DNA of 64,000 nucleotides from a candidate division WWE3 bacterium (lineage in GTDB: Bacteria; Patescibacteriota; WWE3; UBA101185; UBA10185): the NCBI GenBank assembly GCA_014729135.1, contig WJKK01000001.1:260588-324587 (forward strand), read 5' to 3'. The first letter of the stretch is position 1; the number at the start of each line of letters is the position of its first letter. The translations under genes were made by a program, and so were the position numbers. Below the pieces are notes generated by a model. It worked only from the letters and a program-made list of their open reading frames with translations. It was not told the DNA's origin and did not search any database. Shown here piece after piece: positions 14,161 through 52,114 of this stretch.

Positions 14161-14189
14161 TTGACAGATATGGCTTTTAGGGTTATAAT
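14161..14189 (+). promoter_or_regulatory. consensus sigma70-like promoter driving the T-box leader
   Basis: TTGACA (14161-14166), 17 nt spacer, TATAAT (14184-14189). Confidence 0.55.
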
Positions 14190-14195
14190 TACCCA

Positions 14196-14540
14196 CGTTA
14201 GTTTGAAAATTAATTAAAAGCTTTGACGGAAGGTCATTAGTAGAATATCTTCAGTGACACCAGAGATTGTGCGGTAGCTGAAAGCACAACGTATGAAGTA
14301 GTTTGAATTACCCTTTCTGAGCTTTCCGACTGAAAAACCTTTTTTAGGTAGTAAGTTGGAACGGGCGATCCCGTTATAGATTTTGGAGTGTGTCACGAAT
14401 CGTAAAACGAAGCAACAGAGCACTTCTCAAGACTCTTATGGTGACATAAGGGTGAATTTAAGGTGGTACCGCGGTAATAAAGCCGTCCTTAGACTTTATC
14501 TATTAATTTAGATGAGGTTTGAGGACGGCTTTTTTTGTTG
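14196..14540 (+). promoter_or_regulatory. T-box riboswitch leader (tRNA-sensing transcription attenuator); specifier tentatively UAC (Tyr)
   Basis: T-box sequence aatttaaGGTGGTACCGCGG (14455-14474); F-box-like CCCGTTATA (14370-14378); AGUA S-turn element and AGAGA box in Stem I; terminator aaagccgtcc...ggacggcttt plus T-tract (14479-14537). Confidence 0.65.
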
Positions 14541-14673
14541 TAAAAAAGTCTTTTAAAAGCACTTTGAAAGAAAAATACTACTGACAATGCAGGAACTATT
14601 GAGATAGTGAGAATTTTTCGCTATTTCTGCGTTTCTGTATTGTTTGTTTCACTACCTAAAAAGGAGGAGCATT

Positions 14674-14886
14674 ATGGAGATGGAGGTAAGACTAGCCCCT
14701 ATTGGTGGGGGGATCTATGTGTTGAAGTCGGTTGTGAGTGGCGATTTTGTGTGTTTGGACCATGGGGGTACTCCGAGAATCACGAGTTTTGAAAGAGCCC
14801 GGAAGGGGACGGCTCAAGAGTTGGAGGAATTGGTCCGAAACCACATAGGATTGTATCTGCAAGAGGATGAGGCGTTGGGATACTAG
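14674..14886 (+). CDS. small hypothetical protein (70 aa from MEMEV...; ORF track gives 14644)
   Basis: Strong SD aaaggagg 8 nt before ATG 14674; GC content rises through the ORF; no recognised domain. Confidence 0.3.
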   Translation: MEMEVRLAPIGGGIYVLKSVVSGDFVCLDHGGTPRITSFERARKGTAQELEELVRNHIGLYLQEDEALGY

Positions 14887-14916: not shown

Positions 14917-15828
14917 ATGAAAGCTTTACCTGAAAGTTTGGAGGGTTTCAACATCCTCCATGTCGTTTTGGATTCGTTGCGCTTTGACAGCGCGTCCCGG
15001 GCAGATACACCTGTGCTTGATTCCCTGGGGCCACTAATTGCCGCGCGAACTTTGGCACCCTACACTCCCGCAGCACATGCTGCTGCCTGGTTGGGCCACT
15101 TTCCGAGTGCGCCCACATCGGCGCTGCCTTACTACAATGAGACCGTACGGCAGCCCCTACGTATCACCACGGGTCCCGCCCGTGACGCGAACAAAGGCTG
15201 TGGGATGCTTTTGGATGGCGCCGATGTGCTGGATGGCCTGTGTCGAAAGGGTTATTCCACGTTAGGTTGGGGAGGTGTTTCCCAATTTAGTACAGGTAGC
15301 TGGCTTCGCCAGTTTGCCTGGGACCATTTCACTTATTTTGGAGTGGATATGGACGAGGAGCCTCTGGCACCGCGCGCACCTGAAACCTTTCCCTTGAATC
15401 TGAATCGTGTGGGCGAGATTTTGTCCACAATGTCTGATTATGGGAAGGTTCCTTGGTTCCTTTTTCTCAACGACCCCGCGCCACACTATCCCTATGATTG
15501 GGGGGAAGGTATTACCGAGGAAGTGCGGGAGGAGGCTTTTCCCTTGCTTAAGCTCAATCTGCGTTCTCACCATCTTGCCATGGAGAAGCGCGACATGCTG
15601 GCGCTTTATGCCCCTCTCCTTCAGCAGATGCAAGTAGATGGTTTGGAACGTTATATCGATCCTGGTCTTGGGGAACTTTTCAAAGGTCTTCGGCAGATCT
15701 CGGATCGCCCCGTCTTTGCAATTGTGCACGCCGATCATGGTGAGTACTTTGGTGAGGACGGACTGTATGGTCACATGCATGGAGGAATCTATGATATGAC
15801 TGTTCCTCTGTGGATTGGTGTACTCTAA
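14917..15828 (+). CDS. alkaline-phosphatase-superfamily enzyme (sulfatase / nucleotide pyrophosphatase-phosphodiesterase-like); GC-rich, likely acquired
   Basis: N-terminal metal-ligand motif NILHVVLDSLRFD and C-terminal HADHGEYFGE...GHMHGG resemble AlkP-superfamily signatures; local GC (estimated by eye) is far above the flanks. Confidence 0.5.
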   Translation: MKALPESLEGFNILHVVLDSLRFDSASRADTPVLDSLGPLIAARTLAPYTPAAHAAAWLGHFPSAPTSALPYYNETVRQPLRITTGPARDANKGCGMLLDGADVLDGLCRKGYSTLGWGGVSQFSTGSWLRQFAWDHFTYFGVDMDEEPLAPRAPETFPLNLNRVGEILSTMSDYGKVPWFLFLNDPAPHYPYDWGEGITEEVREEAFPLLKLNLRSHHLAMEKRDMLALYAPLLQQMQVDGLERYIDPGLGELFKGLRQISDRPVFAIVHADHGEYFGEDGLYGHMHGGIYDMTVPLWIGVL

Positions 15829-15853
15829 AGGAGGTGAAACAACTATAGTCATC

Positions 15854-15900
15854 GGGCTCCTCGCTCTTGCCAAGCGTCAACTAAGCTTAGCGAGGAGCCC
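15854..15900 (+). terminator. GC-rich hairpin closing the GC-rich block
   Basis: gggctcctcgct (15854-15865) pairs with agcgaggagccc (15889-15900), a 12-bp stem with a 23-nt loop; no clear T-tract. Confidence 0.4.
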
Positions 15901-15938
15901 GGTAGAATTTTACCAGAAACGTTTTAACAAGTTAGAAT

Positions 15939-16520
15939 ATGATTATGAAACTAAAAATACTAGGTATTGCCCAAGATGGGGGAGTACCGCAAATAAATTG
16001 TCAGTGTAAAAATTGTAAGACATCTCGTACTGAAGGTGTGCCTTTGTTTGCGACCTCCTTACTTGTAGAGAGAGCTAAAGGAAAAAGTACCTTAATTGAT
16101 GTTTCTCCCGATATAAAAAATCAGCTGACACCCACTGAATTTAATGGTATAGACAGTATTGTTTTAACCCATGCACATGTAGGTCACATTGGCGGGTTGC
16201 TTCAGTTTGGCTTTGAGATAGCAAATAAAAAAGGCGTTAATCTTTTTGCATCTCCGGAAATGCACTCTTTCTTACAGGATAATGAGCCTTGGAAACAGTT
16301 ATTTGAAAATGGAAATATAGTTCCGTGCAAATTTAGATTTGAAGAAACTTTTGCTCTTGAGGAGTTAAGAGTTACCCCTTTAAAAGTTCCTCATAGGGAT
16401 GAAATAGCAGATACAAGCGGTTTTATATTGGAAGGTGATTTCAAAAAAGTTTTATTTATTCCCGATATTAAGAACTGGCTTGTTTGGGAGAAAGACTTGA
16501 AAGAGGAAGTAAGTAAGTAA
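15939..16520 (+). CDS. MBL-fold metallo-hydrolase (PqqB-like), N-terminal part; interrupted by an in-frame TAA inside a (GTAA)5 repeat
   Basis: LTHAHVGHIGGL metal-binding motif; the ORF ends in ...EVSK* within gtaagtaagtaagtaagtaa. Confidence 0.55.
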   Translation: MIMKLKILGIAQDGGVPQINCQCKNCKTSRTEGVPLFATSLLVERAKGKSTLIDVSPDIKNQLTPTEFNGIDSIVLTHAHVGHIGGLLQFGFEIANKKGVNLFASPEMHSFLQDNEPWKQLFENGNIVPCKFRFEETFALEELRVTPLKVPHRDEIADTSGFILEGDFKKVLFIPDIKNWLVWEKDLKEEVSK

Positions 16521-16529
16521 GTAAGTAAG
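16506..16529 (+). repeat. tetranucleotide repeat, five to six (GTAA)/(AGTA) units
   Basis: gaagtaagtaagtaagtaagtaagg seen directly; it sits between two in-frame ORFs. Confidence 0.8.
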
Positions 16530-16787
16530 GTGGATATTGCCCTTATTGATGGTACCTTTTTTAGTTTAGATGAGTTACCCGGTAGGGATGTTGCGGAAAT
16601 AGGTCATCCCTTAATTAGAGATAGTATTGAGGAATTGGAAGGCTTGTCTGATATCGGGAAAAAGAAAGTTCATTTTATACACTTTAATCACAGCAATCCT
16701 GTTTTGAGTGCCAAAGGAGAAGCGAGGAAATTTATTGCGGAGGCAGGTTTCAATTTGGCGGAGCAAGGAATGGTATTAGAAATATAA
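16530..16787 (+). CDS. MBL-fold metallo-hydrolase (PqqB-like), C-terminal part; same frame as 15939..16520, GTG start
   Basis: Continuation of the beta-lactamase-fold C-terminal region (HFIHFNHSNP); both ORFs start at positions divisible by 3. Confidence 0.45.
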   Translation: MDIALIDGTFFSLDELPGRDVAEIGHPLIRDSIEELEGLSDIGKKKVHFIHFNHSNPVLSAKGEARKFIAEAGFNLAEQGMVLEI

Positions 16788-16797
16788 CTAAGAGTAT

Positions 16798-16883
16798 CCG
16801 GGGATACCAAAGTGGTCAACTGGGGCGGTCTGTAAAACCGCTGGCTTTTGCCTACGCTGGTTCGAATCCAGCTCCCCGGACCA
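16798..16883 (+). tRNA. tRNA-Tyr (anticodon GUA), long variable arm, CCA encoded
   Basis: Acceptor ccgggga/tccccgg; anticodon stem gcggt/accgc with loop CUGUAAA; variable arm tggcttttgcctacgctgg; T-arm gctgg-ttcgaat-ccagc. Confidence 0.8.
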
Positions 16884-16893
16884 ATTTAGAACT

Positions 16894-17976
16894 ATGAAAA
16901 AAGAAGTTAAGAGAAATAAAATTCAGAGGGATTACACGCGCCAAGTGCCTAATCCGGAAGATTTTCAGAGATTTGACCTCTCCGGGGGTAATCCTTGGTT
17001 CCGCGATTTGATTGATGAATGGGTCAGGGAGCTTCCTTTAGATACCCTTATTCATTTTCCTGATAATTTTTCTCGAGTTAAAGCTTTATTAGCGGATTGG
17101 TTAGGTGTTCCTTCTGATATGTTATTCATCAATAATGGTAGCGATTCTATTATAGAGTTACTCCCTAGAGTATTTTTAAAGAGTGATGCCTCTGTAGTCG
17201 TTCCCGTGCCCACCTTCTTTAGATTTATTCAGGCCTCGGAGCGTAATTGCAACAATGTCATAAAAGTTCGTTTTGGAAATAATTTTGTTTGGACACCTGC
17301 GTTTCTTGAACGTTTTTTAACCTCTGTGAACGATCCCTCAGTAAAGCTTGCTTGGTTGGCCAGTCCTAATAACCCCACAGGACTATGTATTCCCCCAGCA
17401 ATGTTAAAAGAAGTTCTTCGTACTGGAAAGCTTGTCGTTTTAGATAGGGCTTTAAATGGATTTGCCCCCGATTTGAGGAAGGACACCTATCTATTAGAGG
17501 AATATCCCAATTTGATTATCTTATCAAGTTTCTCGAAGAATTTCGGGTTGGCGGGATTACGCTTTGGGTTTAGTTTAGCCTCTCCCTCAAATACGCAAAA
17601 ATTGAGGGAATATTCCCTGCCCTTTACCGTTTCCGGTCCTTCTCTGTGGTTTATGGAACGCTTTTTACACTGTCTTGTCCAAGGTGTTGTTTCTGGTGAG
17701 GACTCGGCATCTATCGAGTCTTCGAGGCTTGAGTTAGAGAATTCCCTGCGAACCATCCCGGGATTAGAAGTTGTTTCTGGTTCGCAGGCAAACTTTCTTA
17801 TGTTTCGTCATTCCATGGAGCCTGACTTGTTTGGTAGGTTAAAGGATAGTGGGATTTTAGTTGCTGATTTGAACAATACCTCCGGAATTGAGGGAGAGGG
17901 TTTTGTTCGAATGACCATTCGTAGTGTTTCTGAGAATAGAAAGTTTGTTGAAAAATTAAAGGAGATAGTCGGCTAA
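16894..17976 (+). CDS. class I/II PLP-dependent aminotransferase (HisC/aromatic aminotransferase-like)
   Basis: LASPNNPTG and the PLP-lysine context SFSKNFGLAGLRFG. Confidence 0.75.
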   Translation: MKKEVKRNKIQRDYTRQVPNPEDFQRFDLSGGNPWFRDLIDEWVRELPLDTLIHFPDNFSRVKALLADWLGVPSDMLFINNGSDSIIELLPRVFLKSDASVVVPVPTFFRFIQASERNCNNVIKVRFGNNFVWTPAFLERFLTSVNDPSVKLAWLASPNNPTGLCIPPAMLKEVLRTGKLVVLDRALNGFAPDLRKDTYLLEEYPNLIILSSFSKNFGLAGLRFGFSLASPSNTQKLREYSLPFTVSGPSLWFMERFLHCLVQGVVSGEDSASIESSRLELENSLRTIPGLEVVSGSQANFLMFRHSMEPDLFGRLKDSGILVADLNNTSGIEGEGFVRMTIRSVSENRKFVEKLKEIVG

Positions 17977-17981
17977 GCTGT

Positions 17982-18452
17982 ATGTGGACTTTTGAAAAAA
18001 TAACCTCACTTTTGAGGAGAAGAGGTATTGCTTTTGAAGAAATTCACTTTATGGATGACGGAGCCGTTTCGGCCCGTGCTGCAGATACATCAAAAAACAA
18101 TAACTATGATCCTGACAAGGCTATCAAAACCCTAGTTGTTGTTTCGGGTGACTTCTTGTACGGTGTTGTATTGCGCGCAGATAGTCGCATCGACTCTATC
18201 AAGTTAAAAAAATTGATAGGGAAATGGAGTGTAGTTTCCCTAGATGCTTTAGAGGATTTGGGGTTTGTGCCCGGTGGAGTTAACCCTTTTGTTCTGGATT
18301 TTCCTGTCTTTGCGGATGCTGCAGTTTTGGATTTACCTTTTCTTAGCATGGGTGCCGGTAGTCGAACTAAAGGCATCAACGTTTCTGTATCTGAGTTTGA
18401 AAAAAACCTTGATTATAAAGTTATAGACATAAAGGAGAATGTAAGTACATGA
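17982..18452 (+). CDS. YbaK/ProX-family aminoacyl-tRNA deacylase (trans-editing protein)
   Basis: 156 aa; the KTLVVVSGD...FVPGGVNPF pattern is typical of the YbaK editing domain; it sits directly upstream of tyrS. Confidence 0.6.
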   Translation: MWTFEKITSLLRRRGIAFEEIHFMDDGAVSARAADTSKNNNYDPDKAIKTLVVVSGDFLYGVVLRADSRIDSIKLKKLIGKWSVVSLDALEDLGFVPGGVNPFVLDFPVFADAAVLDLPFLSMGAGSRTKGINVSVSEFEKNLDYKVIDIKENVST

Positions 18453-19582
18453 CTACAAAAGAGAAGTTTAATTTAATTGAGCGTAACACTGAAGAAGTAA
18501 TTATGCCCGAGGAGTTAAAAGGGCTTTTGGATGCAGAGGAAAAGCTTAAGCATTACATTGGTTTCGAGATTTCCGGAAAAATACATTTAGGAACTGGTCT
18601 AATGTGTATGGGTAAAGTAAAAGATTTTATGGAGGCTGGTGTTGAGTGTACGATTTTTTTGGCAGACTGGCATACTTGGATAAACGATAAGTTGGGGGGA
18701 GATATGGAGACAATCCAGGAGATTGCTGTCGGCTATTTTAAGGAGGGTTTGAAAGCCTCCTTGAAAGCCCTCGGAGGCGATCCCGAAAAACTGAATTTTG
18801 TTTTGGGAAGTGAGCTTTACCACAACAATGATGCGTATTGGGCTACCGTTATTGAAGTGTCTAAGAACATAACTTTGTCTCGGAATTTGCGCAGTATCTC
18901 TATTATGGGACGCGAGGAGGGTGAAGGAGTGGATTTTGCTAAATTGATTTATCCACCCATGCAAGTTGCGGATATTTTTGCACAAGGGATTACCTTAGCG
19001 CATGCGGGCATGGATCAGCGTAAGGCCCATGTAGTTATGCGTGACGTTGCGGACAAACTCACTATTTGTCCTGCAAGGAACTCTTTGGGGAAGAAGATCA
19101 AACCCTTAGCAGTGCATCATCCCCTTCTTCTAGGTTTACAGAAACCTCCTATGTGGCCTGTTCCAAAAGAAAAATTGCGTGATGTATGGGCTTCTGCAAA
19201 AATGAGCAAGTCCAAGCCCAAATCTGCTGTTTTTATTACGGATTCTCCTGATGAGATACGGGAAAAGATTCTGGATGCTTTTTGTCCTCAGAACAATGCG
19301 GAGTTTAACCCTGTTTTAGATTGGGTAAAGCGCCTTGTTTTTATGAGCCCTTCGACGATTTTTGAAGTGGATCGCGAAGAAAGGTTTGGGGGTAAAATTT
19401 CTTTTAGCTCTTTTGCGGAAGTAGAAGACGCTTTTGTTTCAGGAGATTTACATTCGCAGGATTTAAAAAGAGCCCTGGCCGAATTTTTGGTAGTTTTGTT
19501 GGAACCTGTTAGGGAGCACTTTGATCTTTCGGAGAATAAAAAGTTATTAGAGCGTATGAACGACTTAGCGATTACTCGTTAG
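18449..19582 (+). CDS. tyrS: tyrosine--tRNA ligase, archaeal/eukaryotic type
   Basis: Near-collinear with Methanocaldococcus TyrRS: FNLIERNTEEV, GFEISGKIHLG (HIGH-like) and KMSKSKP (KMSKS); 377 aa. Confidence 0.85.
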   Translation: MTTKEKFNLIERNTEEVIMPEELKGLLDAEEKLKHYIGFEISGKIHLGTGLMCMGKVKDFMEAGVECTIFLADWHTWINDKLGGDMETIQEIAVGYFKEGLKASLKALGGDPEKLNFVLGSELYHNNDAYWATVIEVSKNITLSRNLRSISIMGREEGEGVDFAKLIYPPMQVADIFAQGITLAHAGMDQRKAHVVMRDVADKLTICPARNSLGKKIKPLAVHHPLLLGLQKPPMWPVPKEKLRDVWASAKMSKSKPKSAVFITDSPDEIREKILDAFCPQNNAEFNPVLDWVKRLVFMSPSTIFEVDREERFGGKISFSSFAEVEDAFVSGDLHSQDLKRALAEFLVVLLEPVREHFDLSENKKLLERMNDLAITR

Positions 19583-19597
19583 AATCTCTTAATGAAA

Positions 19598-19632
19598 CGA
19601 GAAACCCCGGAAAATCCGGGGTTTCTTTGTTT
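19598..19632 (+). terminator. bidirectional rho-independent terminator between tyrS and hsp20
   Basis: gaaaccccgg-aaaat-ccggggtttc followed by TTTGTTT. Confidence 0.55.
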
Positions 19633-33884: not shown

Positions 33885-33977
33885 ATGGATCCGCTGGGCT
33901 GGTGTGTGGTTGGGTTTGTCTTTGTGATTGTAGGAGTTGTGGGCTATGCCCGCACCGTTCTGGGCTCCTCGAGTTAG
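33885..33977 (+). CDS. small hydrophobic peptide (30 aa) in a GC-rich mini-island
   Basis: SD agggggtgagg 6 nt upstream of ATG; MDPLGWCVVGFVFVIVGVVGYARTVLGSSS has one TM helix. Confidence 0.3.
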   Translation: MDPLGWCVVGFVFVIVGVVGYARTVLGSSS

Positions 33978-33987
33978 GAGGTGGGTG

Positions 33988-34104
33988 ATGGGGATCGGTA
34001 TTGGCATCGGCGTTGGCATTTTGGTGCTCGGTTTCGCGATTCTTGTGGTGACCCGTGGTCGCGAAGCGAGCGAGGAGACCGCCGAAATGTTTCGGAATCG
34101 GTGA
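33988..34104 (+). CDS. small hydrophobic peptide (38 aa) in a GC-rich mini-island
   Basis: SD aggaggtgggtg immediately upstream; MGIGIGIGVGILVLGFAILVVTRGREASEETAEMFRNR has a Gly-zipper TM helix and a charged tail. Confidence 0.3.
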   Translation: MGIGIGIGVGILVLGFAILVVTRGREASEETAEMFRNR

Positions 34105-34219
34105 TCTTCTCGTTTTGGCAAGGAGTCGGTTGGAAATGAAAGGGGAGGAGGTTTTCCTCAATCATTTCCAGCCGGCTTGCAGTAAGCGCTTCGGAGCTTT
34201 TTCATGCTAAACTTTCCCC

Positions 34220-37517: not shown

Positions 37518-37934
37518 CTAAAACTTCACCAACTCCATCTCCTCAAACACCTCAAAATCCTTAACATTATTCGTTGCAATCTTATAAATAGAATTTGACA
37601 AGGCTGTTGCCACTAAATAGGCATCATATATCTTATTTGAAGTTACTTTGTACTTTTTAAGCAACCTAAAGAAATGTTCCCTTGTGTATATGTTAGGAGA
37701 AATATGTATGCATAAATCACTTACTCTTTTTACCGCTTCCATTGCATCCTTTAAAGAAGCCGTCTTTTTGTACTTTTCATGTGTAAGGACTCTAATTGCT
37801 TCGTTTATGTTTTGATCTGCTAAGGCAAGCTGGGGAAGATGAAGGTTTATGAATTCCCTTGCTTGCTGATTTAAGAGATCATTTTCATTTATAGAGAAGA
37901 TCAGAATATTTGTGTCCAGGAGGATTTCAGGCAT
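37518..37934 (-). CDS. PIN-domain ribonuclease (VapC-like toxin)
   Basis: MPEILLDTNILI N-terminal PIN signature with downstream acidic residues; 138 aa. Confidence 0.7.
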   Translation of the reverse strand: MPEILLDTNILIFSINENDLLNQQAREFINLHLPQLALADQNINEAIRVLTHEKYKKTASLKDAMEAVKRVSDLCIHISPNIYTREHFFRLLKKYKVTSNKIYDAYLVATALSNSIYKIATNNVKDFEVFEEMELVKF

Positions 37935-42012: not shown

Positions 42013-42285
42013 ATGCTATTTATCTCGTTATCATTAATAATTGGTTTTACGTTGGGGCTTGTGTTTAGGGGAAGATTCAGTAACCTTGAATTTTTGGAAA
42101 AGGTCATGGACCTATTGGTCCTACTACTTATTTTCTCTATAGGCATGAATTTAGGTTCCAACACCGTTTTGTTGGAGAATTTCTCCACACTTGGATTTCA
42201 GAGTATCCTTTTGGCTCTCTTCTGCTCCGCAGGAAGTGTCCTCTTAGTATTTCTTTTTACACTTAGGAGAAATAAGAATGTTTAA
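42013..42285 (+). CDS. LysO/DUF340-family membrane protein, small subunit
   Basis: 90-aa three-TM protein overlapping a 197-aa paralogous-fold membrane protein, the typical split DUF340 pair. Confidence 0.4.
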   Translation: MLFISLSLIIGFTLGLVFRGRFSNLEFLEKVMDLLVLLLIFSIGMNLGSNTVLLENFSTLGFQSILLALFCSAGSVLLVFLFTLRRNKNV

Positions 42286-42871
42286 AACAGGTACTGCTTT
42301 CTTATTGGGGACATTTGGAGGTTATTTGCTGTTGCGCAATTTTTCCCTTGATATAAGTTCCGCCATTTCTTACCTAGTTGCTCTTTTGCTGTTTTTTGTT
42401 GGTTTTTTGGTTGGAAATGATAGTAGGATTCTCGGAGATTCTTCCTGGAGAGTTCGTGATTATTTGGTGCCTTTGTTTTCCTTGATGGGTTCTGTCCTTG
42501 GGGGTTTATTAGTTGCTGCCCTTATTGGATCATTGCCTTTTTCGGATGCACTTCTCGCCTCTTTGGGAATGGGTTATTACAGTGTTCCTAGCATAATAGT
42601 TACCGCTCGTTTAAGTACCTCTATTGGTTCTTTAGTTCTGCTTACAAACATTTTACGTGAGGTGCTGGTTTTACTCTTTACTCCTCTTTTGGTTAAGAAA
42701 TTAAATAGGTTAGCACCCATTGCTCTTGGAGGTACTACAACAATGGATGTTTCGCTGCCCATAATTACAGAGTATTCGGGAAAGGACTATGTGGTGCCTG
42801 CTTTTATAAATGGAGTTGTTTTAACGGTAATAGTTCCATTGTTAGTAAGTTTAACCGTTTCTTTAATTTAA
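42278..42871 (+). CDS. LysO/DUF340-family membrane protein, large subunit
   Basis: 197-aa six-TM protein; ATGA-type overlap with the upstream partner. Confidence 0.4.
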   Translation: MFKTGTAFLLGTFGGYLLLRNFSLDISSAISYLVALLLFFVGFLVGNDSRILGDSSWRVRDYLVPLFSLMGSVLGGLLVAALIGSLPFSDALLASLGMGYYSVPSIIVTARLSTSIGSLVLLTNILREVLVLLFTPLLVKKLNRLAPIALGGTTTMDVSLPIITEYSGKDYVVPAFINGVVLTVIVPLLVSLTVSLI

Positions 42872-43365: not shown

Positions 43366-43675
43366 ATTGAAAAATAAATACTAAAAGCTATGATGAAGAG
43401 AGTACCAATAGGAAACGGTTTTACAGAGAGCGGTGCAAAGGTGAGAGTGCCGCATTTACGCCCTTTTGGGAACAAAGCTTCGGAGCTGCTGGAAGAAATT
43501 GCGTTTCGCGCAAGAGTAGAACCGTGCCGGGAGAGCCCGTTATAGCCGAAAACCTTGCTAGAGGTTGTAAGGCCTGTCTGGAAACGGATAGGTAAAAAGA
43601 GGTGGTACCGCGACAATAATCGCCCTCATTTGGATCTAAGTATATGCTTGGGTTTAGGTGAGGGCGTTTTTTGTT
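43366..43675 (+). promoter_or_regulatory. T-box riboswitch leader; specifier tentatively AAA (Lys)
   Basis: Stem I parallels the glyQS Stem I: K-turn AUGAUGA, GAAG, AGAGAGUA, upper stem ccaatagg/ccttttgg, loop GAACAAAG, CUUC. F-box CCCGTTATA (43536-43544), T-box GGTGGTACCGCGA (43601-43613), terminator cgccctca...tgagggcg plus T-tract (43621-43672). Confidence 0.65.
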
Positions 43676-43720: not shown

Positions 43721-44908
43721 ATGGGGAAGCAAGTTTTGGTGATGGGGGTTAGGCGGCAATATCAGTTCGACGGAGATTGGGGAGACTGGCTTCGGCTCGG
43801 TGTTCGGCGTCTTCTGACTTTACAGTCAGGAGATGTTGCAGTCCTGCCGGAGATTTGGGGCATTCCCGAGTATGTGGAGCACTTGCAGGAGGTTTGGGGT
43901 ATCAATTTGGAGGTCCTGTGGGTGAGCGGTAGGTTTTACCTCCTGGATAGCGCTATTCTGGAGACCCCGAGGGTTCTCGGGCGTCTTCAGGAACTGGGAG
44001 GACAAGGTGCAGTTTTTGTGCTGTACGATAGTTCGACGTCACACTTCCAGTCTTGGTGGCGATTGATGCCGCAGGAAGCTCGTTTGTGTGGAGAGACTTT
44101 GGAGTGGGGTAGTCGATGGAACACCAAGAAGTGGTTGTACCGAGACGCTAGGAATCCAGAGCAACCTTCGATTGCCGAACGGTTGGATATTCCGGTACTC
44201 TCAGGCTACAATGCAGGATCCGTCGCGGAGCTGTTGAAGGCTTGGGACCTAATAGGATGTGGCTCGGTTATCATCAAGCCGTTGACAGCGGCGTTTGGTG
44301 ACGGTTTGGTGGTTGCGCATGAACGGAGTGATTTGGAGTCCTATACTTTCCCACTCGGTTCGGTGGGTGTGGAGGAGTATGTGGAAGGTTATCCCCAGCC
44401 TTGGTCCACCCACTGGGTAGGGGAGGAGCTGCTTGGACCTCCGACTTCCCAGCTTCTTCACGGGAGCACTGCCGTGGGAAACGTCACTCCAGGGGATTTT
44501 GACGCGGCGATGCAGGGGCAGCTTCTGGCGTTGACCCGTGAGTTTGTTCGGGCAGCCCAGCCCCGCGGCTATGGGGGCCTCAACGGGTTGATCGACGCCG
44601 AAGGGGTACCCCGCGTGACGGATGCCAATTGTAGGGAGACGGGTGTTTGCTCGACGCTCGTTTTCCGTGACCGTTATTGTCCCGGGGCGGTGACGGTAAA
44701 CAAGAAGTTGGGGAGACCTAACATGTCCGTTGGAGATGCTTGGCAGTGTCTTCAAGCGGCAGGCTTAGCATTCGACATCTCGGCGCGACGAGGAATAGCC
44801 CTCCAGGGGTGGTTACCCTCGATGTGGAGTCGCATGACCTGCGCCGCAGACACGAGGCAAGAGGCCTTAGAGCTGCTCAATGCAGCAAAGGAGGCTTTAG
44901 GTATGTAA
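43721..44908 (+). CDS. ATP-grasp-fold enzyme (RimK/LysX-like ligase family); GC-rich, likely acquired
   Basis: Strong SD aaggagg. VIIKPLTAAFGDGLVV (central ATP-grasp lysine strand), VGVEEYVEGY (E-x-Y-I/V hinge), LIDAEGVPRVTDANCRETG (Mg-binding Asp/Asn loop). Local GC (estimated by eye) is well above the flanks. Confidence 0.5.
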   Translation: MGKQVLVMGVRRQYQFDGDWGDWLRLGVRRLLTLQSGDVAVLPEIWGIPEYVEHLQEVWGINLEVLWVSGRFYLLDSAILETPRVLGRLQELGGQGAVFVLYDSSTSHFQSWWRLMPQEARLCGETLEWGSRWNTKKWLYRDARNPEQPSIAERLDIPVLSGYNAGSVAELLKAWDLIGCGSVIIKPLTAAFGDGLVVAHERSDLESYTFPLGSVGVEEYVEGYPQPWSTHWVGEELLGPPTSQLLHGSTAVGNVTPGDFDAAMQGQLLALTREFVRAAQPRGYGGLNGLIDAEGVPRVTDANCRETGVCSTLVFRDRYCPGAVTVNKKLGRPNMSVGDAWQCLQAAGLAFDISARRGIALQGWLPSMWSRMTCAADTRQEALELLNAAKEALGM

Positions 44909-44927
44909 TGTAAAAAGTTGTGTTGAC

Positions 44928-44976
44928 GCGATGGGAGGGTATGGGCCGGTTGGATATCGTCCAACCCTCCTATCGC
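44928..44976 (+). terminator. long imperfect GC-rich hairpin closing the second GC-rich block
   Basis: gcgatgggagg...[ggttgg-atatcgt-ccaacc]...cctcctatcgc nested stems 20 nt after the ATP-grasp stop. Confidence 0.4.
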
Positions 44977-44996
44977 GCATCAATTGTAAGGTAAAA

Positions 44997-46091
44997 ATGA
45001 TAAACAGACAAAGATTAATAAATACATTTTTAGAAATAGTTCAGATTGATAGCCCTTCGGGTGCGGAAGGAGCTATGGTGGAATACGTAACTTCTTTTCT
45101 ACACGCGTTAGGAGTGCGCCATGTAGTGGATTCTTTTGGCAACGTTATTGCTTATACTGAAGGTTCCGGAGGGCCTCTCTTGTTAAGTGCGCACTTAGAT
45201 ACAGTTGAGCCCGGAAGAGCTATTGCTCCTGTCATTGAAGACGGCTTTATCAGAAGTTCCGGCGACACCATTTTAGGCGCTGATAACAAGGTTGCAGTAG
45301 CCTCTCTGTTGGAGTTGATACGTACACTGACGGAAGCATCTGTAACCGATATTCCTTCTTTAGAGGTTATTTTTACGCTTTCAGAGGAAGTTGCGAATTT
45401 GGGAGCTGTAAATCTTGATTATTCTCTTCTGAGTGCGCGAGAAGGTTTTACTTTTGATAGTGGAAGTTCTTTGGGTACAGTTATTACCGACTCTCCTTTC
45501 TATAATCGGTTTGATATAGTTGTTAATGGTGTTGCCTGCCATGCAGGACATCCGGAAAGAGGCCTAAATGCTTTAAGTTTGGTGGTTAATGCGCTATCTC
45601 AAATTACTCTGGGTCAGACCGGTCTTGAAACCACTTGCAACATAGGTTTGATTGAGGGGGGAGTTGCACGCAATATTGTCCCCGGGCAAATTACTCTCCG
45701 AGGAGAAGTACGCAGTTTTGTAGAGAGTGTCCTAGAGGAAATGTGCACGGATATTAGTAGCGTTTTTCAGAAAGTAGTTGCAGAAAATGAGGGCTCCGTG
45801 GAAATAGAGATTGTTCGCGAAAATAGTGGCTTCAGTTTTTCTGCTGATGACCCTCTGTTGAGATACACTATGCGAATTCTAGAAGATTTAGAGCTTTCCC
45901 CAACCCCGCGTGTTTCTACGGGTTGTTATGATGCTAACATATTTCAGGAGCATGGGATTTGTGTTCTAAACTTGGGTAATGGTTCCGTGGATAATCACAC
46001 AATTAGGGAAAAGATTTCTGTGGTAGACTTAGAAATGCTGGCAAACCTTGTATATAGTTTAGTGATGGGTTTTAATAGGTACAGGAATTAA
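44997..46091 (+). CDS. M20-family metallopeptidase (PepT/tripeptidase-like); the ORF-track start 44931 lies inside the upstream hairpin, so ATG 44997 is preferred
   Basis: MINRQRLINTFLEIVQIDSPSG, HLDTVEPG and the dimerisation-domain layout of M20B peptidases. Confidence 0.7.
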   Translation: MINRQRLINTFLEIVQIDSPSGAEGAMVEYVTSFLHALGVRHVVDSFGNVIAYTEGSGGPLLLSAHLDTVEPGRAIAPVIEDGFIRSSGDTILGADNKVAVASLLELIRTLTEASVTDIPSLEVIFTLSEEVANLGAVNLDYSLLSAREGFTFDSGSSLGTVITDSPFYNRFDIVVNGVACHAGHPERGLNALSLVVNALSQITLGQTGLETTCNIGLIEGGVARNIVPGQITLRGEVRSFVESVLEEMCTDISSVFQKVVAENEGSVEIEIVRENSGFSFSADDPLLRYTMRILEDLELSPTPRVSTGCYDANIFQEHGICVLNLGNGSVDNHTIREKISVVDLEMLANLVYSLVMGFNRYRN

Positions 46092-46105: not shown

Positions 46106-47581
46106 ATGTCGACAATAGCAGATCTTCGTAAGGTAAGGCTTGAACAACTGGAGAAAATAAAAAAGCTTGGTTTAAATCCCTATCCTGCTGAATCCAAAAA
46201 AGACTATCCAAATAAAGAAATTCTAGATAATTTTGAGGATCTTGAAGGCAAGAGCGCAAATATTACAGGGCGCATAACTTCAATACGTGAACATGGAGCT
46301 TTAGTTTTCATAGATTTAGCCGATGAGTCCGGTGTAATTCAACTTTATATTAGAGAGGACACACTAAAAGCAACAGATCTCCAAGATCAGATTTTAGGTT
46401 TTGACCATATAAGCCTTTTAGGTACAGGTGATTTTATTCAAGCTTTTGGAGAAGTTACAAAAACAAAGTCGGGTCAAATTTCCCTAAAAGTAGAATCACT
46501 AAAACTTCTCTCAAAGTCCTTGCGACCAATCCCGGAAGAACTAAAAGATATTGAAGAGCGTTACCGCAAACGTTACCTGGATTTTCTACTAAATCCCCGT
46601 TCAAAGGAAATCTTGGATACGCGTTGGAAAATAGAGGAAGAAACACGTAAATTCCTTTGGAATCAAGGATTTAAAGAGGTGGAAACTCCCATTTTGCAGA
46701 CGCTTTATGGAGGTACTAATGCCGAACCTTTTACAACACATTTTAATGCTTTAAATACCGATTTTTATCTTCGTATAGCCCCAGAACTTTATTTAAAGCG
46801 TTTAATAGTGGGAGGTTACGAAAAAGTTTTTGAAATAGCCCGCAACTTTAGAAACGAGGGCATAGATCAAACGCACTTTCCTGAATTTACAATGCTTGAA
46901 TGGTATGAGGCTTATGCTGATTACCATCGGGTTATGGATTTAGCGGAGGCTTTGACAAAGCATCTGGTCTTGAAATTAACAGGCGGAACAACAATAAAAG
47001 TTAATGATCAAGAAATAGATATTAGCGGTACTTGGCCACGTATTCCTGTAGAGGATTTGGCGAAGGAACACCTGGGCATTGAGTGGGATTCCATAGCGGA
47101 TGATGAAATTAAGGATCTGTTGAATAAGCACAAAATTCAAGTTGCAGGTGTTTGGGATCGGGAAAAAGCTTTGTTTACTTTGTATGATCATCTGGTTACG
47201 CCTAAATTAATAGAGCCTGTTTGGGCAATAGATTATCCGCAGTCTGTAAGTCCTTTATCTAAGGCGCATAGAACCAAGGAAAAGCGTGCAGAAAGATTTG
47301 AAGGTTACATTGGAGGTGTGGAGATTTTTGACGGATGGAGTGAGATTGTTTCAGGTCTTGAACAACGTCGTCGTTTTGAGGTGGAGCAGCGAAACATGAA
47401 AGAGGGCGATAAGGAAGCCATGCCTTTAGATGAGGAGTTTATTGAAGCCTTAGAGTACGGTTGCCCTCCTTTGGGTGGAATTGGTTTTGGGATTGACCGC
47501 TTGGTTATGTTTTTAACGGATACTTGGGGTATAAAAGATGTTGTAGCCTTCCCGATTTTAAAGCCTCGCTCCGATAGTTAA
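46106..47581 (+). CDS. lysS: lysine--tRNA ligase (class II)
   Basis: N-terminal OB-fold anticodon-binding domain; class II motifs (FRNEGID, LGGIGFGIDRLVM); 491 aa. Confidence 0.9.
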   Translation: MSTIADLRKVRLEQLEKIKKLGLNPYPAESKKDYPNKEILDNFEDLEGKSANITGRITSIREHGALVFIDLADESGVIQLYIREDTLKATDLQDQILGFDHISLLGTGDFIQAFGEVTKTKSGQISLKVESLKLLSKSLRPIPEELKDIEERYRKRYLDFLLNPRSKEILDTRWKIEEETRKFLWNQGFKEVETPILQTLYGGTNAEPFTTHFNALNTDFYLRIAPELYLKRLIVGGYEKVFEIARNFRNEGIDQTHFPEFTMLEWYEAYADYHRVMDLAEALTKHLVLKLTGGTTIKVNDQEIDISGTWPRIPVEDLAKEHLGIEWDSIADDEIKDLLNKHKIQVAGVWDREKALFTLYDHLVTPKLIEPVWAIDYPQSVSPLSKAHRTKEKRAERFEGYIGGVEIFDGWSEIVSGLEQRRRFEVEQRNMKEGDKEAMPLDEEFIEALEYGCPPLGGIGFGIDRLVMFLTDTWGIKDVVAFPILKPRSDS

Positions 47582-50479: not shown

Positions 50480-51256
50480 TTGGCTTTTATGACTGTTTTT
50501 CAAGCTTTAATTTTAGGTGTAGTTCAGGGGTTAACTGAGTTTTTACCTGTTTCTTCTTCAGCACATTTAGTGGTTTTACCGGAAATTTTTGGTTGGCAGG
50601 CGCATTCTTTGGTTTTTGATACTACTTTGCATTTGGGAACCTCCTTGGCTTTGCTGGCTTACTTTTGGAAGGATTTGTGGGAGATTTTACGTAGTCCTAA
50701 GAAGTGGTGGTTTAAGTTATTTTTAGGGATGTTGCCGGCGGGAGTTTTGGGATTTTTGTTTAATGATTTATTTGAGGAGTATTTCCGGGATATTTCTTTT
50801 GTGGTTGTGTTTTTGGTTTTAGGGAGTGTTTTAATGCATGTAGCTGAGAAGTTTTTTTCTTCCGGTAATGCTTCTGCTGAGGAGGTTTCCGCTAAGAAAA
50901 GTTTTTTGGTAGGACTTTTTCAGAGCTTAGCTTTGTTTCCGGGATTTTCTCGTTCCGGTTCTACGATTTCAGGGGGTATGATTCTTGGAATGTCGAGGGA
51001 AGCAGCAGCTAAGTTTTCGTTTTTACTTTCAATTCCTTTGGTGTGGGCAGCGGGAGGTTTGGAGTTTGTTCAATTGTTTTCTGCAGGTGTTGGTGGGAGC
51101 AGCGTTTCTGCTTTTGCTCTGTTAGTGGGAGCAGTTTCCAGCTTTTTAACGGGAGTTTTATGCATTAAATTCTTCATGCGCTTTGTAAAAAGCAATTCCT
51201 TAATCCCTTTTGTAGTCTACCGCCTTCTCCTCGCCCTGGCTTTGATTATGCTTTAA
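50480..51256 (+). CDS. uppP: undecaprenyl-diphosphatase
   Basis: QGLTEFLPVSSSAHL and GFSRSGSTISGG conserved BacA motifs; 8 TM helices. Confidence 0.85.
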   Translation: MAFMTVFQALILGVVQGLTEFLPVSSSAHLVVLPEIFGWQAHSLVFDTTLHLGTSLALLAYFWKDLWEILRSPKKWWFKLFLGMLPAGVLGFLFNDLFEEYFRDISFVVVFLVLGSVLMHVAEKFFSSGNASAEEVSAKKSFLVGLFQSLALFPGFSRSGSTISGGMILGMSREAAAKFSFLLSIPLVWAAGGLEFVQLFSAGVGGSSVSAFALLVGAVSSFLTGVLCIKFFMRFVKSNSLIPFVVYRLLLALALIML

Positions 51257-51860
51257 AATCCGCTGCTGATTCTCGTAAAAAAGTTTTAACTTCTTGCCAT
51301 TTGGTGGGTTTCAAATAATCCGGTTCCAGGTCACTCTCAACATCTACAAAATACGTTAACGATTTAAGAATATGTGTTCTTTGATAATCTCTCTTTTCGT
51401 ACTTTTTTTCCAAGGCCTTCACTAAATCCTTTAAATCGAGTGTTTGCAATATCTCGTACAGATCCACAAAGTCTTTTTTGGCACTCCTTTGAGAAATGGC
51501 AATTATTTTCATGCAGGCAATATCTAGTACAGATGCCATTTTTATCGCCTTATATCTAACAGTTTCTTTCAAAAGGGGATATGCATATTCCAAAAAGCTT
51601 ATTTTTACTCCCTCAATTTGCAAATGTAGCGTTCCCGGTTTTTCTTCAGTTATTGTTGGTTGATATTTTTCCAGAGCTTTGATGAGTTTTTCTTGTGAAG
51701 GAAACTTTTTTGCAAAAAAATCCAGATCAATGGATTTTCTATGCCCTAGTTGCAGCGCTAGAGCGGTTCCTCCTGCCAAGTAAAACTTCTCTAAAATTGG
51801 CTCATTTTGAATCTTTTCAAGAACTTCTTTTGTTTTTAAATAGAGTGTTTCTTCATGCAT
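51246..51860 (-). CDS. AbiEii/AbiGii-family nucleotidyltransferase toxin (DUF1814)
   Basis: LAGGTALALQLGHRKSIDLDFF matches the DUF1814 GGTAL...R.S.D(I/L)DF nucleotidyltransferase motif. Confidence 0.6.
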   Translation of the reverse strand: MHEETLYLKTKEVLEKIQNEPILEKFYLAGGTALALQLGHRKSIDLDFFAKKFPSQEKLIKALEKYQPTITEEKPGTLHLQIEGVKISFLEYAYPLLKETVRYKAIKMASVLDIACMKIIAISQRSAKKDFVDLYEILQTLDLKDLVKALEKKYEKRDYQRTHILKSLTYFVDVESDLEPDYLKPTKWQEVKTFLRESAADFKA

Positions 51861-52114
51861 TCTAGATTTTTCGCGGGAACTTTGTAATATAAGGCATAAA
51901 AATTCCCTGTTTTGGGGCTTATATTTTTGGAGTTTTTTAGGGTTTCTACAATCTTTTTTCTATCATAAGTCTTATTTAGCCATTTTATTTCTTCCAGATC
52001 TCCCCACTCCAGAATTCGCTCAATAATAAATTTATAGTGTTTGTCTATTGAAATGTTTTCCAAAGGAGTATCCCAAAAGAATACCTTAAAAGACTTAGGT
52101 AGCTTCCTTTCCAT
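51836..52114 (-). CDS. small protein overlapping the AbiEii-like gene; putative cognate antitoxin
   Basis: 92-aa ORF immediately upstream of the toxin gene, overlapping it by 25 nt in the typical TA arrangement; no motif recognised. Confidence 0.3.
   Translation of the reverse strand: MERKLPKSFKVFFWDTPLENISIDKHYKFIIERILEWGDLEEIKWLNKTYDRKKIVETLKNSKNISPKTGNFYALYYKVPAKNLECMKKHSI

What the first reader, a model, noticed from the sequence alone, without database searches (positions are those of the whole stretch)
15854..15900. Both GC-rich blocks end in long GC hairpins without T-tracts: possible recombination sites rather than terminators
Island 1 ends at gggctcctcgct/agcgaggagccc, a 12-bp stem with a 23-nt loop. 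Island 2 ends at 44928-44976 in an 11-bp outer stem (one G-U) enclosing an inner 6-bp hairpin. Neither is followed by a U-run, unlike the clean intrinsic terminators elsewhere in the window (12553, 19598 and both T-box terminators). They are reminiscent of cassette-associated imperfect palindromes such as attC, although no integrase is present in the window.
Basis: inference. Interest (0 to 1): 0.5.

Follow-up and report, generated by a model that had tools for sequence, protein, structure and literature searches.

The report
Conserved hairpins inside two T-box operons
The two GC-rich hairpins are real. Each sits inside an operon controlled by an amino-acid-sensing T-box riboswitch, between an odd-composition enzyme gene and its partner gene, and relatives have a hairpin at the same junction, so they are most likely RNA elements that tune expression within the operon, not integron-like recombination sites.

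Summary
Both hairpins exist as described and are the two strongest contiguous-stem hairpins in the 64 kb window. H1 is 15851-15903 and H2 is 44927-44977. Neither has a U-tract, although the organism, a candidate division WWE3 (CPR) bacterium, uses canonical U-tract terminators elsewhere.

The two operons are:
- Tyr T-box, alkaline-phosphatase-superfamily gene (SULF), H1, MBL-fold gene, tRNA-Tyr, aminotransferase, editing domain, TyrRS.
- Lys T-box, ATP-grasp ligase, H2, M20 peptidase, LysRS.

The same gene orders recur in other CPR genomes. There, a 13-18 bp hairpin of different sequence occupies the same junction in five further loci (z -3.9 to -7.7). Four loci have a 1-20 nt spacer and no hairpin.

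Hairpin presence tracks a local rise in third-codon-position GC (GC3) of the upstream gene: 5 of 5 loci with a hairpin against 0 of 4 without.

No defining attC feature is met. No recombinase is encoded in the window, and the arms are not repeated.

Best reading (about 0.5): sense-strand RNA hairpins acting as a decay barrier, a leaky stop or a processing site that uncouples the first cistron from the downstream aaRS genes. The link between hairpin and GC3 remains unexplained.

The parts
14161..14189 (+). Promoter-like site, a perfect TTGACA-17-TATAAT, ahead of T-box 1
14214..14493 (+). T-box leader 1. The specifier is read as UAC (Tyr). Its terminator is 14482-14529 followed by T7.
   Evidence: Rfam RF00230, 108.5 bits, E 5e-23. 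Terminator. The specifier is inferred from the covariance-model alignment and from the tRNA-Tyr and TyrRS genes downstream.
14674..14886 (+). Small GC-rich ORF of 70 aa counted from the ATG behind an AAGGAGG Shine-Dalgarno. No homologue was found.
   Evidence: (GC3 0.58, computed on the 14644-14886 ORF call)
14917..15828 (+). Island 1 gene, SULF: a 303-aa enzyme of the alkaline-phosphatase superfamily (sulfatase-like). GC3 is 0.52 against a window mean of 0.38.
15851..15903 (+). Hairpin H1: 15-bp stem (13 perfect pairs), 23-nt loop, no U-tract. It starts 22 nt after the SULF stop and ends 41 nt before the MBL start.
15945..16787 (+). MBL-fold gene, the conserved partner of SULF. It is interrupted by an in-frame TAA inside a (GTAA)5 repeat at 16508-16530.
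16798..16883 (+). tRNA-Tyr (GTA)
16894..19582 (+). Class I/II aminotransferase (16894-17976), YbaK-type tRNA editing domain (17982-18452) and TyrRS (18449-19582). The operon ends at the terminator 19600-19626.
43381..43630 (+). T-box leader 2. The specifier is read as AAA (Lys). Its terminator is 43621-43666 followed by T6.
   Evidence: Rfam RF00230, 89.8 bits, just under the gathering score of 93, E 1e-19. Terminator.
43721..44908 (+). Island 2 gene: a 395-aa ATP-grasp amino-acid/peptide ligase resembling PGM1 and BesA. GC3 is 0.61.
44927..44977 (+). Hairpin H2: 14-bp stem with one G.U, an inner hairpin, no U-tract. It starts 18 nt after the ATP-grasp stop and ends 19 nt before the M20 start. 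The sense strand is 10 kcal/mol more stable than the antisense strand.
44997..46091 (+). M20 peptidase, the conserved partner of the ATP-grasp gene
46106..47581 (+). Class II LysRS

Best explanation
H1 and H2 are sense-strand RNA hairpins inside two T-box-controlled operons, one for Tyr and one for Lys. Each lies in the spacer between the first enzyme gene behind the riboswitch (SULF or the ATP-grasp ligase) and the rest of the operon (partner enzyme, then the cognate aaRS).

When the T-box reads through, RNA polymerase transcribes the hairpin. Because there is no U-tract, most polymerases continue into the essential aaRS genes. The long stem then does one or more of three things:
- It blocks 3'-to-5' exonucleases, so the first cistron outlives the distal part, as at malE-malF or in the puf operon.
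- It acts as a weak stop.
- It is cut by a double-strand-specific RNase such as RNase III, leaving a 3' hairpin on the upstream RNA and a structured 5' end on the downstream RNA.

The net effect is to uncouple the level of the first cistron from that of the downstream genes.

Shown here: the position of the hairpins, their conservation across loci, the missing U-tract, the operon context and the T-boxes. Inferred: the RNA-level role and which of the three sub-mechanisms applies.
For: **Context.**
- Both hairpins sit between co-directional genes downstream of a T-box with its own promoter and U-tract terminator.
- Only 19 nt separate H2 from the M20 start codon, which leaves no room for a promoter.

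**Conservation of position without conservation of sequence.**
- The SULF-MBL spacer carries a 13-16 bp stem in L003/4/5, L006, L007 and L008/L100-103.
- The ATP-grasp-M20 spacer carries one in L015/16 and L012/13.
- Every CPR spacer folds far better than its shuffles: z -3.9 to -7.7, 0 of 300.

**Stems differ yet stay paired.**
- The 5' arms read CGGGCTCCTCGCT (window), GTCGGGCTTCTGTG (L003), TCTGGGCCTCCGTAAG (L008), AAGAAGGGTAGGCA (L007) and GGGAAATCACATTA (L015).
- The L015 hairpin is AT-rich like its 30% GC host, so pairing has been kept while composition drifted.

**Strand bias.**
- The stem imperfections in the contiguous-stem hairpins are G.U on the sense strand (window H1 and H2, L007, L008, L015, L012); L006 also has a bulged C.
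- For the H2 type, the sense fold beats the antisense fold in all three organisms: -38.9 vs -28.8, -25.7 vs -19.1 and -31.9 vs -25.8 kcal/mol.

**Not a canonical terminator.**
- The organism's real terminators have U-tracts.
- Typical terminator stems are 7-11 bp with 3-5 nt loops (PMC10325885).
- In the one lineage tested for this, mycobacterial RNA polymerase did not terminate at hairpins lacking U-tracts (PMC3993855).

**Precedent.**
- Protective 3' hairpins inside operons are documented and are often conserved (PMC5927463).
- RNase III is encoded in a related locus (L003 11833-12528).
Against: - There are no transcript data, so neither 3' ends nor half-lives are known.
- For the H1 type the strand asymmetry is mixed. 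The antisense fold is more stable in L003 and L006, so a DNA-level or strand-neutral role is not excluded.
- Four orthologous operons (L009, L097, L104, L105) work without any hairpin, so it is dispensable.
- The hairpin co-occurs with a GC3 step in the upstream gene: 5 of 5 loci with a hairpin against 0 of 4 without. An RNA-stability model does not by itself predict this.
- L007, L012 and L106 have T-rich tails that look like ordinary terminators, so the class may be heterogeneous.
Confidence: 0.5

Rival explanations
1. The hairpins are neutral relics. The GC-rich genes came from GC-richer donors together with the donor's terminator hairpin. The U-tract then decayed or was selected away because essential aaRS genes lie downstream, and the hairpin has no present function.
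For: - The window hairpins match the GC of the island, not that of the host.
- Island codon usage is foreign-looking and uniform. AAG is 0.80 of Lys codons against 0.44 elsewhere, and CGG is 0.23 of Arg codons against 0.09.
- GC-rich relatives end the ATP-grasp gene with a hairpin plus T-run: L012 has GCCGCGGCGGGG..CCCTGCCGCGGTTTTCTGTT, and L106 is similar.
- The hairpin is present only where GC3 is elevated.
Against: - Stems stay perfect at 13-18 bp across loci whose SULF proteins are only 53-68% identical, a divergence at which an unselected palindrome should have decayed.
- The L015 hairpin has taken on its host's AT-rich composition yet still pairs over 14-18 bp.
- SULF identities track TyrRS identities in L007, L097 and L104, which argues against a recent import there.
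Confidence: 0.17
2. One reading: the hairpins are DNA-level recombination sites, attC-like or otherwise hairpin-directed, that mark the 3' end of mobile promoterless cassettes captured behind a T-box.
For: - The architecture resembles a cassette: a regulated promoter and leader, then one or more compositionally atypical promoterless genes, then a 3' palindrome.
- The gene content between T-box and hairpin varies. L007 adds a PAPS synthase with GC3 0.74, L006 a tRNA, and the window a small ORF.
- Hairpin and GC3 step co-occur in 5 of 5 loci with a hairpin against 0 of 4 without.
- H1-type stems are strand-symmetric.
Against: - No attC feature is present.
- H1 and H2 are unrelated in sequence.
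- There is one site per locus and no array.
- No recombinase or transposase is encoded in 64 kb.
- No flanking direct repeats rise above chance.
- The genes on the two sides of the hairpin are a conserved functional pair, including in loci without a hairpin and in GC-rich genomes.
- H2-type hairpins are sense-strand biased.
Confidence: 0.07
3. The hairpins are true, factor-assisted transcription stops that end a short T-box-controlled unit, and the downstream genes (MBL or M20 through the aaRS) are transcribed from their own promoter.
For: - A promoter-like TTTACC-18-TAGAAT lies directly after H1, at 15909-15938.
- Hairpin-bearing spacers are 68-123 nt and AT-rich, whereas hairpin-less loci have 1-20 nt spacers.
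- L007 and L012 have T-rich tails.
Against: - H2 is followed by only 19 nt before the M20 ATG, and no promoter match is found there on the plus strand.
- No U-tract follows the window, L003 or L015 hairpins.
- The promoter match after H1 scores at chance level: 16 sites were found in the region against 14.1 expected from shuffles.
Confidence: 0.12

Closest known systems
Operon-internal protective hairpins ("mRNA decay terminators"): the malE-malF REP hairpin, the puf intercistronic stem-loop, and the protective structures mapped by Dar & Sorek 2018 (PMC5927463)
   Same: A stable stem-loop between or within co-transcribed genes, with no requirement for a U-tract. It is conserved in orthologous operons. 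The expected effect is a longer life for the upstream cistron.
   Different: - No half-life or 3'-end data exist here.
- The stems are unusually long and perfect.
- The host is a CPR bacterium.
- The operon is T-box controlled.
- Hairpin presence correlates with a codon-composition step in the protected gene. I have not seen such a correlation described for the known cases; this rests on my own knowledge and the one paper read, not on a systematic search.
Canonical intrinsic (Rho-independent) terminators
   Same: A GC-rich hairpin just downstream of a stop codon. Some orthologous hairpins (L007, L012, L106) do have T-rich tails.
   Different: - H1, H2, L003 and L015 have no U-tract.
- Stems are 13-18 bp, against 7-11 bp for typical terminators.
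- Loops reach 28 nt.
- An essential aaRS lies downstream in the same operon.
Integron attC sites
   Same: An imperfect palindrome at the 3' end of a promoterless, compositionally atypical gene that lies downstream of a shared promoter.
   Different: No R and L boxes, no unpaired central spacer, no extrahelical bases, no integrase, no array. The stems are essentially perfect.
RNase III processing hairpins between cistrons, such as the phage T7 early-mRNA R sites (from my own knowledge)
   Same: An intercistronic hairpin whose coaxial helix approaches two turns. H1 has 17+4 bp, H2 about 25 bp with small bulges, and L015 18+3 bp. Cleavage would leave a stabilising 3' hairpin.
   Different: Neither cleavage nor recognition features could be tested. 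Several stems are shorter than a classical substrate of about 20-22 bp.

Membership tests
Integron attC site | Outer R box: 5'-RYYYAAC-3' paired with 5'-GTTRRRY-3' at the base of the hairpin (PMC5027507) | tested here: not met
   No RYYYAAC(40-130)GTTRRRY pair overlaps either hairpin on either strand. H1 has neither box. H2 has GTTGGAT and GTCCAAC only in its apical inner hairpin, 3 nt apart and in the wrong order.
Integron attC site | An unpaired central spacer of 5-6 nt per arm, and 2-3 extrahelical bases that make the two strands asymmetric | tested here: not met
   H1 has 13 perfect contiguous pairs. H2 has 14 contiguous pairs with a single G.U. Neither has bulges in the outer stem.
Integron attC site | An integron integrase and attI nearby, with cassettes in arrays that each end in an attC | tested here: not met
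   No Phage_integrase or other recombinase hit among window ORFs of at least 90 aa. There is one hairpin per operon. The rest of the genome could not be tested with these tools.
Canonical intrinsic terminator | A 7-9 nt U-rich tract immediately 3' of the stem | tested here: not met
   The tails are AGAAUUUUAC and CAUCAAUUGU. The terminator scan does not call either site, although it finds the T-box, groEL and tyrS terminators.
Canonical intrinsic terminator | A short GC-rich stem of about 7-11 bp with a 3-5 nt loop | tested here: not met
   Contiguous stems are 15 and 14 bp and enclose a 23-nt apical segment. Typical values are from PMC10325885.
Operon-internal protective or attenuating RNA hairpin | A stable stem-loop between co-directional, co-transcribed genes | tested here: met
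   z is -5.5 to -6.4 in the window and -3.9 to -7.7 in orthologous spacers. The spacers lie within T-box operons. Co-transcription itself is inferred, not shown.
Operon-internal protective or attenuating RNA hairpin | Structure conserved at the same junction in orthologous operons while the sequence diverges | tested here: met
   Five further loci have hairpins at the same junction with different arm sequences: L003, L006, L007, L008 and L015. L012 does too, in a GC-rich genome. Four loci lack a hairpin.
Operon-internal protective or attenuating RNA hairpin | The upstream segment is more abundant or longer-lived than the downstream one, with RNA 3' ends at the hairpin | not testable with these tools
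   No transcriptome data are available for this uncultured lineage.
REP/BIME or MITE-type repeated palindromes | Many related copies dispersed in intergenic regions of the genome | tested here: not met
   Searches with the hairpin arms, allowing up to 3 mismatches, give no more hits than shuffled sequence in 64 kb. H1 and H2 share no 7-mer. The whole genome could not be searched.
T-box leader (the elements that open both GC-rich blocks) | A match to the RF00230 covariance model with Stem I, a specifier loop, the T-box sequence and a terminator | tested here: met
   108.5 bits for T-box 1. T-box 2 scores 89.8 bits, below the gathering score of 93, with E 1e-19. Both have U-tract terminators.
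RNase III substrate | About two turns (around 20 bp) of near-continuous double helix | tested here: inconclusive
   Coaxial helices total about 21 bp in H1 and about 25 bp in H2, with small interruptions. Some orthologues have only 13-16 bp. Cleavage cannot be tested here.

The most novel reading that the evidence does not exclude
The block made of one or more compositionally atypical genes plus a terminal long hairpin is a transferable module. It is repeatedly installed, or swapped by recombination, between a T-box leader and the cognate aaRS operon in CPR bacteria. The hairpin would be the recombination or boundary element. This would amount to a riboswitch-anchored, integron-like way of capturing genes without a classical integrase.
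Probability: 0.07. Interest if true: 0.8.

Novelty: new member of a known kind. Interest (0 to 1): 0.38.

Why it matters
If the reading is right, small-genome CPR bacteria add a second, post-transcriptional layer inside T-box operons. A long hairpin would let one starvation signal drive an accessory enzyme and an essential aaRS at different levels.

The analysis also shows that T-boxes in these lineages control unusual enzyme pairs. One is an alkaline-phosphatase-superfamily enzyme plus an MBL-fold protein, with a PAPS synthase added in L007, together with TyrRS. The other is an ATP-grasp ligase plus an M20 peptidase, together with LysRS. These pairs are candidates for amino-acid salvage in organisms that I understand, from general knowledge and not tested here, to lack most amino-acid biosynthesis.

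The reproducible link between the hairpin and a GC3 step in the upstream gene is unexplained. It could bear on mRNA-level selection or on how genes are exchanged among CPR genomes.

Tried and rejected
- **Exact look-ups.** Searching for the two island proteins by exact sequence found nothing.
- **Word-indexed searches with ORF2.** Both the single sequence and the alignment failed. The exhaustive profile search was needed.
- **Metagenome scans.**
  - The alignment A2 was too divergent for a scan.
  - The scan with A3 found nothing.
  - The scan with A1 was swamped by a generic sulfatase motif and returned only relatives of 36% identity or less over substantial alignments, which were not used.
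- **Small upstream ORFs.** The window ORF 14644-14886 is unrelated to the small ORFs in L001, L003 and L007, and to anything in the fetched loci.
- **Flanking repeats around the islands.**
  - Only chance-level matches were found.
  - A 22-nt stretch 5' of H2 resembles the T-box 2 core at 77% identity, but no covariance-model hit supports a second T-box.
- **Shared loop motif.** ACTAAGCTTA occurs in both the window and L007 loops, but 1.2% of shuffles give a match as long, so it is not significant after multiple comparisons.
- **Near-copy of the H1 arm.** The 13-mer at 34069-34081 lies in a small-peptide ORF and is probably chance.
- **Column-wise covariation count.**
  - MAFFT could not align the hairpins in register.
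  - I did not run a formal count and rely instead on per-locus stems and shuffles.
- **SULF as a horizontally moving clade.**
  - A first identity matrix suggested SULF is more conserved than MBL.
  - With more loci this looks like a general rate difference. SULF tracks TyrRS in L007, L097 and L104, so I dropped the claim.
- **Population variants.** L003/4/5, L008/L100-103, L015/16 and L012/13 have identical spacers within each group and gave no micro-covariation.

Full report
**1.

H1 has the arms CGGGCTCCTCGCT (15853-15865) and AGCGAGGAGCCCG (15889-15901). That is 13 perfect pairs, or 15 with an added A-U and G.U (15851-15903), around a 23-nt loop. H2 has 14 contiguous pairs with one G.U (44927-44940 against 44964-44977) around a small inner hairpin.

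Both fold far better than shuffled sequence. H1 gives -33.4 kcal/mol, z -6.4. H2 gives -38.9 kcal/mol, z -5.5. In each case 0 of 200 shuffles did as well.

Neither hairpin is followed by a U-run. The same window does contain textbook terminators with T-runs: after both T-box leaders, after groEL and after tyrS.

A survey of both strands of the window for stems of at least 9 bp puts H1 and H2 first, at -32 and -35 kcal/mol. The next best is -25.

Each hairpin coincides with a sharp compositional step. GC3 falls from 0.52 to 0.28 across H1 and from 0.61 to 0.35 across H2, against a window mean of 0.38 with sd 0.07.

**2. What surrounds the hairpins**

The source is a candidate division WWE3 (CPR) genome. 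The island 1 protein is 100% identical to GF360_01340 on an 864 kb contig.

Both GC-rich blocks open with a T-box leader:
- T-box 1 is at 14214-14493 and scores 108.5 bits.
- T-box 2 is at 43381-43630. It scores 89.8 bits, just below Rfam's gathering score of 93, with E 1e-19.

Each T-box has a promoter-like site and a U-tract terminator. From the covariance-model alignments I read the specifiers as UAC (Tyr) and AAA (Lys). This is an inference, and the downstream genes support it.

Operon 1 runs in this order:
- T-box (Tyr)
- small ORF
- SULF, an alkaline-phosphatase-superfamily, sulfatase-like enzyme
- H1
- MBL-fold gene
- tRNA-Tyr
- aminotransferase
- YbaK-type editing domain
- TyrRS

Operon 2 runs in this order:
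- T-box (Lys)
- ATP-grasp ligase. Its model has pLDDT 91, and the best structural matches are Streptomyces peptide ligases, BesA and PGM1, with TM 0.74-0.78.
- H2
- M20 peptidase
- LysRS

**3. The arrangement is conserved, hairpin included**

For operon 1, the order Tyr T-box, SULF, MBL, TyrRS recurs in these loci:
- L003/4/5
- L006, binned as Bathyarchaeia but with bacterial gene content
- L007, from WWE3
- L008 and L100-103, from Saccharibacteria. No T-box was detected in L008 or L100 at E <= 0.001.
- L009, from Shapirobacteria
- L097, L104 and L105.

For operon 2, the order Lys T-box (specifier AAG), ATP-grasp, M20, LysRS recurs in L015/16. The ATP-grasp-M20 pair also recurs in a roughly 60% GC organism, L012/13.

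Hairpins at the SULF-MBL junction:

| Locus | Stem | Loop |
|---|---|---|
| L003 | 16 bp perfect | 28 nt |
| L006 | 8+5 bp with one bulge | not stated |
| L007 | 15 bp with one G.U | 19 nt |
| L008 | 16 bp with two G.U | 6 nt |

At the ATP-grasp-M20 junction, L015 has a stem of 14 perfect pairs, or 18 counting two G.U, that is AT-rich like its 30% GC host.

All of these spacers fold much better than their dinucleotide shuffles, with z -3.9 to -7.7 and 0 of 300 shuffles as stable. In L003 and L008 the hairpin is by far the strongest in about 13 kb.

The arm sequences differ between loci. Only a TCGGGCT core is shared by the window, L003 and L006. Pairing has therefore been kept while sequence changed.

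Four loci (L009, L097, L104, L105) have a 1-20 nt spacer and no hairpin.

**4. Test of the recombination-site reading**

I took the defining features of attC from PMC5027507. They are paired RYYYAAC and GTTRRRY boxes at the base, an unpaired central spacer, extrahelical bases, and a length of 57-141 bp.
- None of the structural features is present.
- The only 7-mers that match the boxes lie in the apical inner hairpin of H2, 3 nt apart and in the wrong order.
- H1 and H2 share no sequence.
- Their arms are not repeated in the window above chance.
- The islands have no flanking repeats above chance.
- No window ORF of at least 90 aa matches a recombinase or transposase family.

Most importantly, the genes on the two sides of each hairpin form a conserved pair. 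This holds in genomes without a compositional step and in genomes without the hairpin. The hairpin is therefore operon-internal and does not separate a cassette from unrelated DNA.

**5. Most likely mechanism**

The hairpins lie on the T-box read-through transcript. They have no U-tract. The RNA polymerase of this organism evidently uses U-tract terminators, because its T-boxes depend on them. In the one lineage examined for this question, mycobacteria, RNA polymerase did not terminate at hairpins lacking U-tracts, even with NusA and NusG (PMC3993855). Essential aaRS genes lie downstream, and H2 ends only 19 nt before the M20 start codon. Most transcription must therefore pass through.

The closest documented analogues are protective hairpins inside operons, such as malE-malF, puf and the set mapped by Dar & Sorek. 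These block 3' exonucleases and make the upstream cistron outlive the rest, and they are often conserved between species (PMC5927463).

With coaxial helices of about 21-25 bp, the hairpins could also be RNase III sites. RNase III is encoded in the related locus L003.

Evidence for action on the sense strand is moderate. The stem imperfections in the contiguous-stem hairpins are G.U on the sense strand. H2-type hairpins are 6-10 kcal/mol more stable in the sense orientation in all three organisms. H1-type hairpins are roughly symmetric, and two favour the antisense orientation.

I put about 0.5 on an RNA-level role that uncouples the first cistron from the distal genes. I cannot choose among exonuclease barrier, leaky stop and processing site.

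**6. What remains unexplained**

Hairpin presence tracks a GC3 excess of the upstream gene.

| Loci | Hairpin | GC3 excess of upstream gene |
|---|---|---|
| Window, L003, L006, L007, L008 (SULF) | yes | +0.10 to +0.16 |
| L009, L097, L104, L105 (SULF) | no | -0.08 to +0.02 |
| Window (ATP-grasp) | yes | +0.23 |
| L015 (ATP-grasp) | yes | +0.17 |

The exact 5-against-4 split for SULF gives p of about 0.008, but the loci are not phylogenetically independent.

The excess is uniform along the gene and ends at the hairpin. Codon choice in the islands is distinct from the rest of the window. In L007 a PAPS synthase with GC3 0.74 also sits between the T-box and the hairpin.

This pattern is what keeps a transferable-module reading alive. 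However, SULF identities follow TyrRS identities in L007, L097 and L104 (60-65% against 63-66%), so recent import of SULF is not evident.

Three alternatives remain open:
- replacement by alleles from GC-richer relatives that carry gene plus hairpin;
- joint selection for a long-lived first cistron, through GC-rich codons plus a 3' hairpin;
- biased gene conversion at a recombination hot spot.

**7. Verdict**

The attC or recombination interpretation is not supported. The statement that these are not canonical terminators is supported.

The elements are best filed as new examples of a known kind, namely conserved intercistronic RNA hairpins. They occur here in an unusual setting: T-box operons of CPR bacteria that carry non-canonical enzyme pairs. 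The association between hairpin and composition is unexplained.

Interest is moderate.

Noticed in passing
window 16508-16530: A (GTAA)x5 tetranucleotide repeat inside the MBL-fold gene puts a TAA in frame at 16518-16520. The reading frame is the same before and after, giving pieces of 193 and 85 aa, whereas orthologues are uninterrupted at 273-298 aa. It could be a slipped-strand expansion, a pseudogene or an assembly artefact.
   Followed up: partly
L007 4057-5946 (WWE3 MAG PFXB01000064): A bifunctional PAPS synthase (PUA_2, ATP-sulfurylase and APS kinase domains; GC3 0.74) lies between the Tyr T-box and the sulfatase-like gene. This hints that these Tyr T-box operons deal with sulfate or phosphate esters, possibly of tyrosine.
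   Followed up: partly
window 14917-15828 and 15945-16787; nine further loci: A Tyr T-box controls a conserved pair, an alkaline-phosphatase-superfamily enzyme and an MBL-fold protein, ahead of TyrRS. The TyrRS is the archaeal-like short form in the window, L008 and L009, and the bacterial form with an S4 domain in L003, L006 and L007. L097, L104 and L105 cluster with the bacterial form by sequence identity. The operon has therefore been rebuilt around different synthetases.
   Followed up: partly
window 43721-46091; L015, L012: A Lys T-box controls an ATP-grasp ligase resembling PGM1 and BesA, plus an M20 peptidase, ahead of LysRS. A LysO lysine exporter (42013-42871) and a DUF2000 protein lie just upstream in the window. 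This may be a lysine conjugation or salvage module.
   Followed up: partly
window 43721-44908: The intact 395-aa ATP-grasp ORF is not in the large protein collection as a full-length protein. Only a 61-aa C-terminal piece (P0041, 100% identical) is present, which suggests the gene was mis-called or treated as a pseudogene in public annotation.
   Followed up: no
window 33886-34110: Two small GC-rich ORFs of 30 and 38 aa, hydrophobic and with strong Shine-Dalgarno sequences, lie in a divergent intergenic region. The second contains a 13-mer that differs by one base from the H1 arm (34069-34081). The match is probably chance.
   Followed up: partly
window 44910-44931 vs 43592-43613: The 22 nt just 5' of H2 are 77% identical to the conserved core of T-box 2 (GTAAAAAG..GTGGTACCGCGA). 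No covariance-model hit supports a second T-box, so this is probably chance.
   Followed up: partly
window 15909-15938: A promoter-like TTTACC-18-TAGAAT ends directly at the ATG region of the MBL gene, which would give a leaderless or near-leaderless transcript. The match scores at chance level.
   Followed up: no
window 51246-52114 and 37518-37934: An AbiEii-type toxin with a DUF6922 partner, and a PIN-domain protein. These look like toxin-antitoxin modules in a small CPR genome.
   Followed up: no
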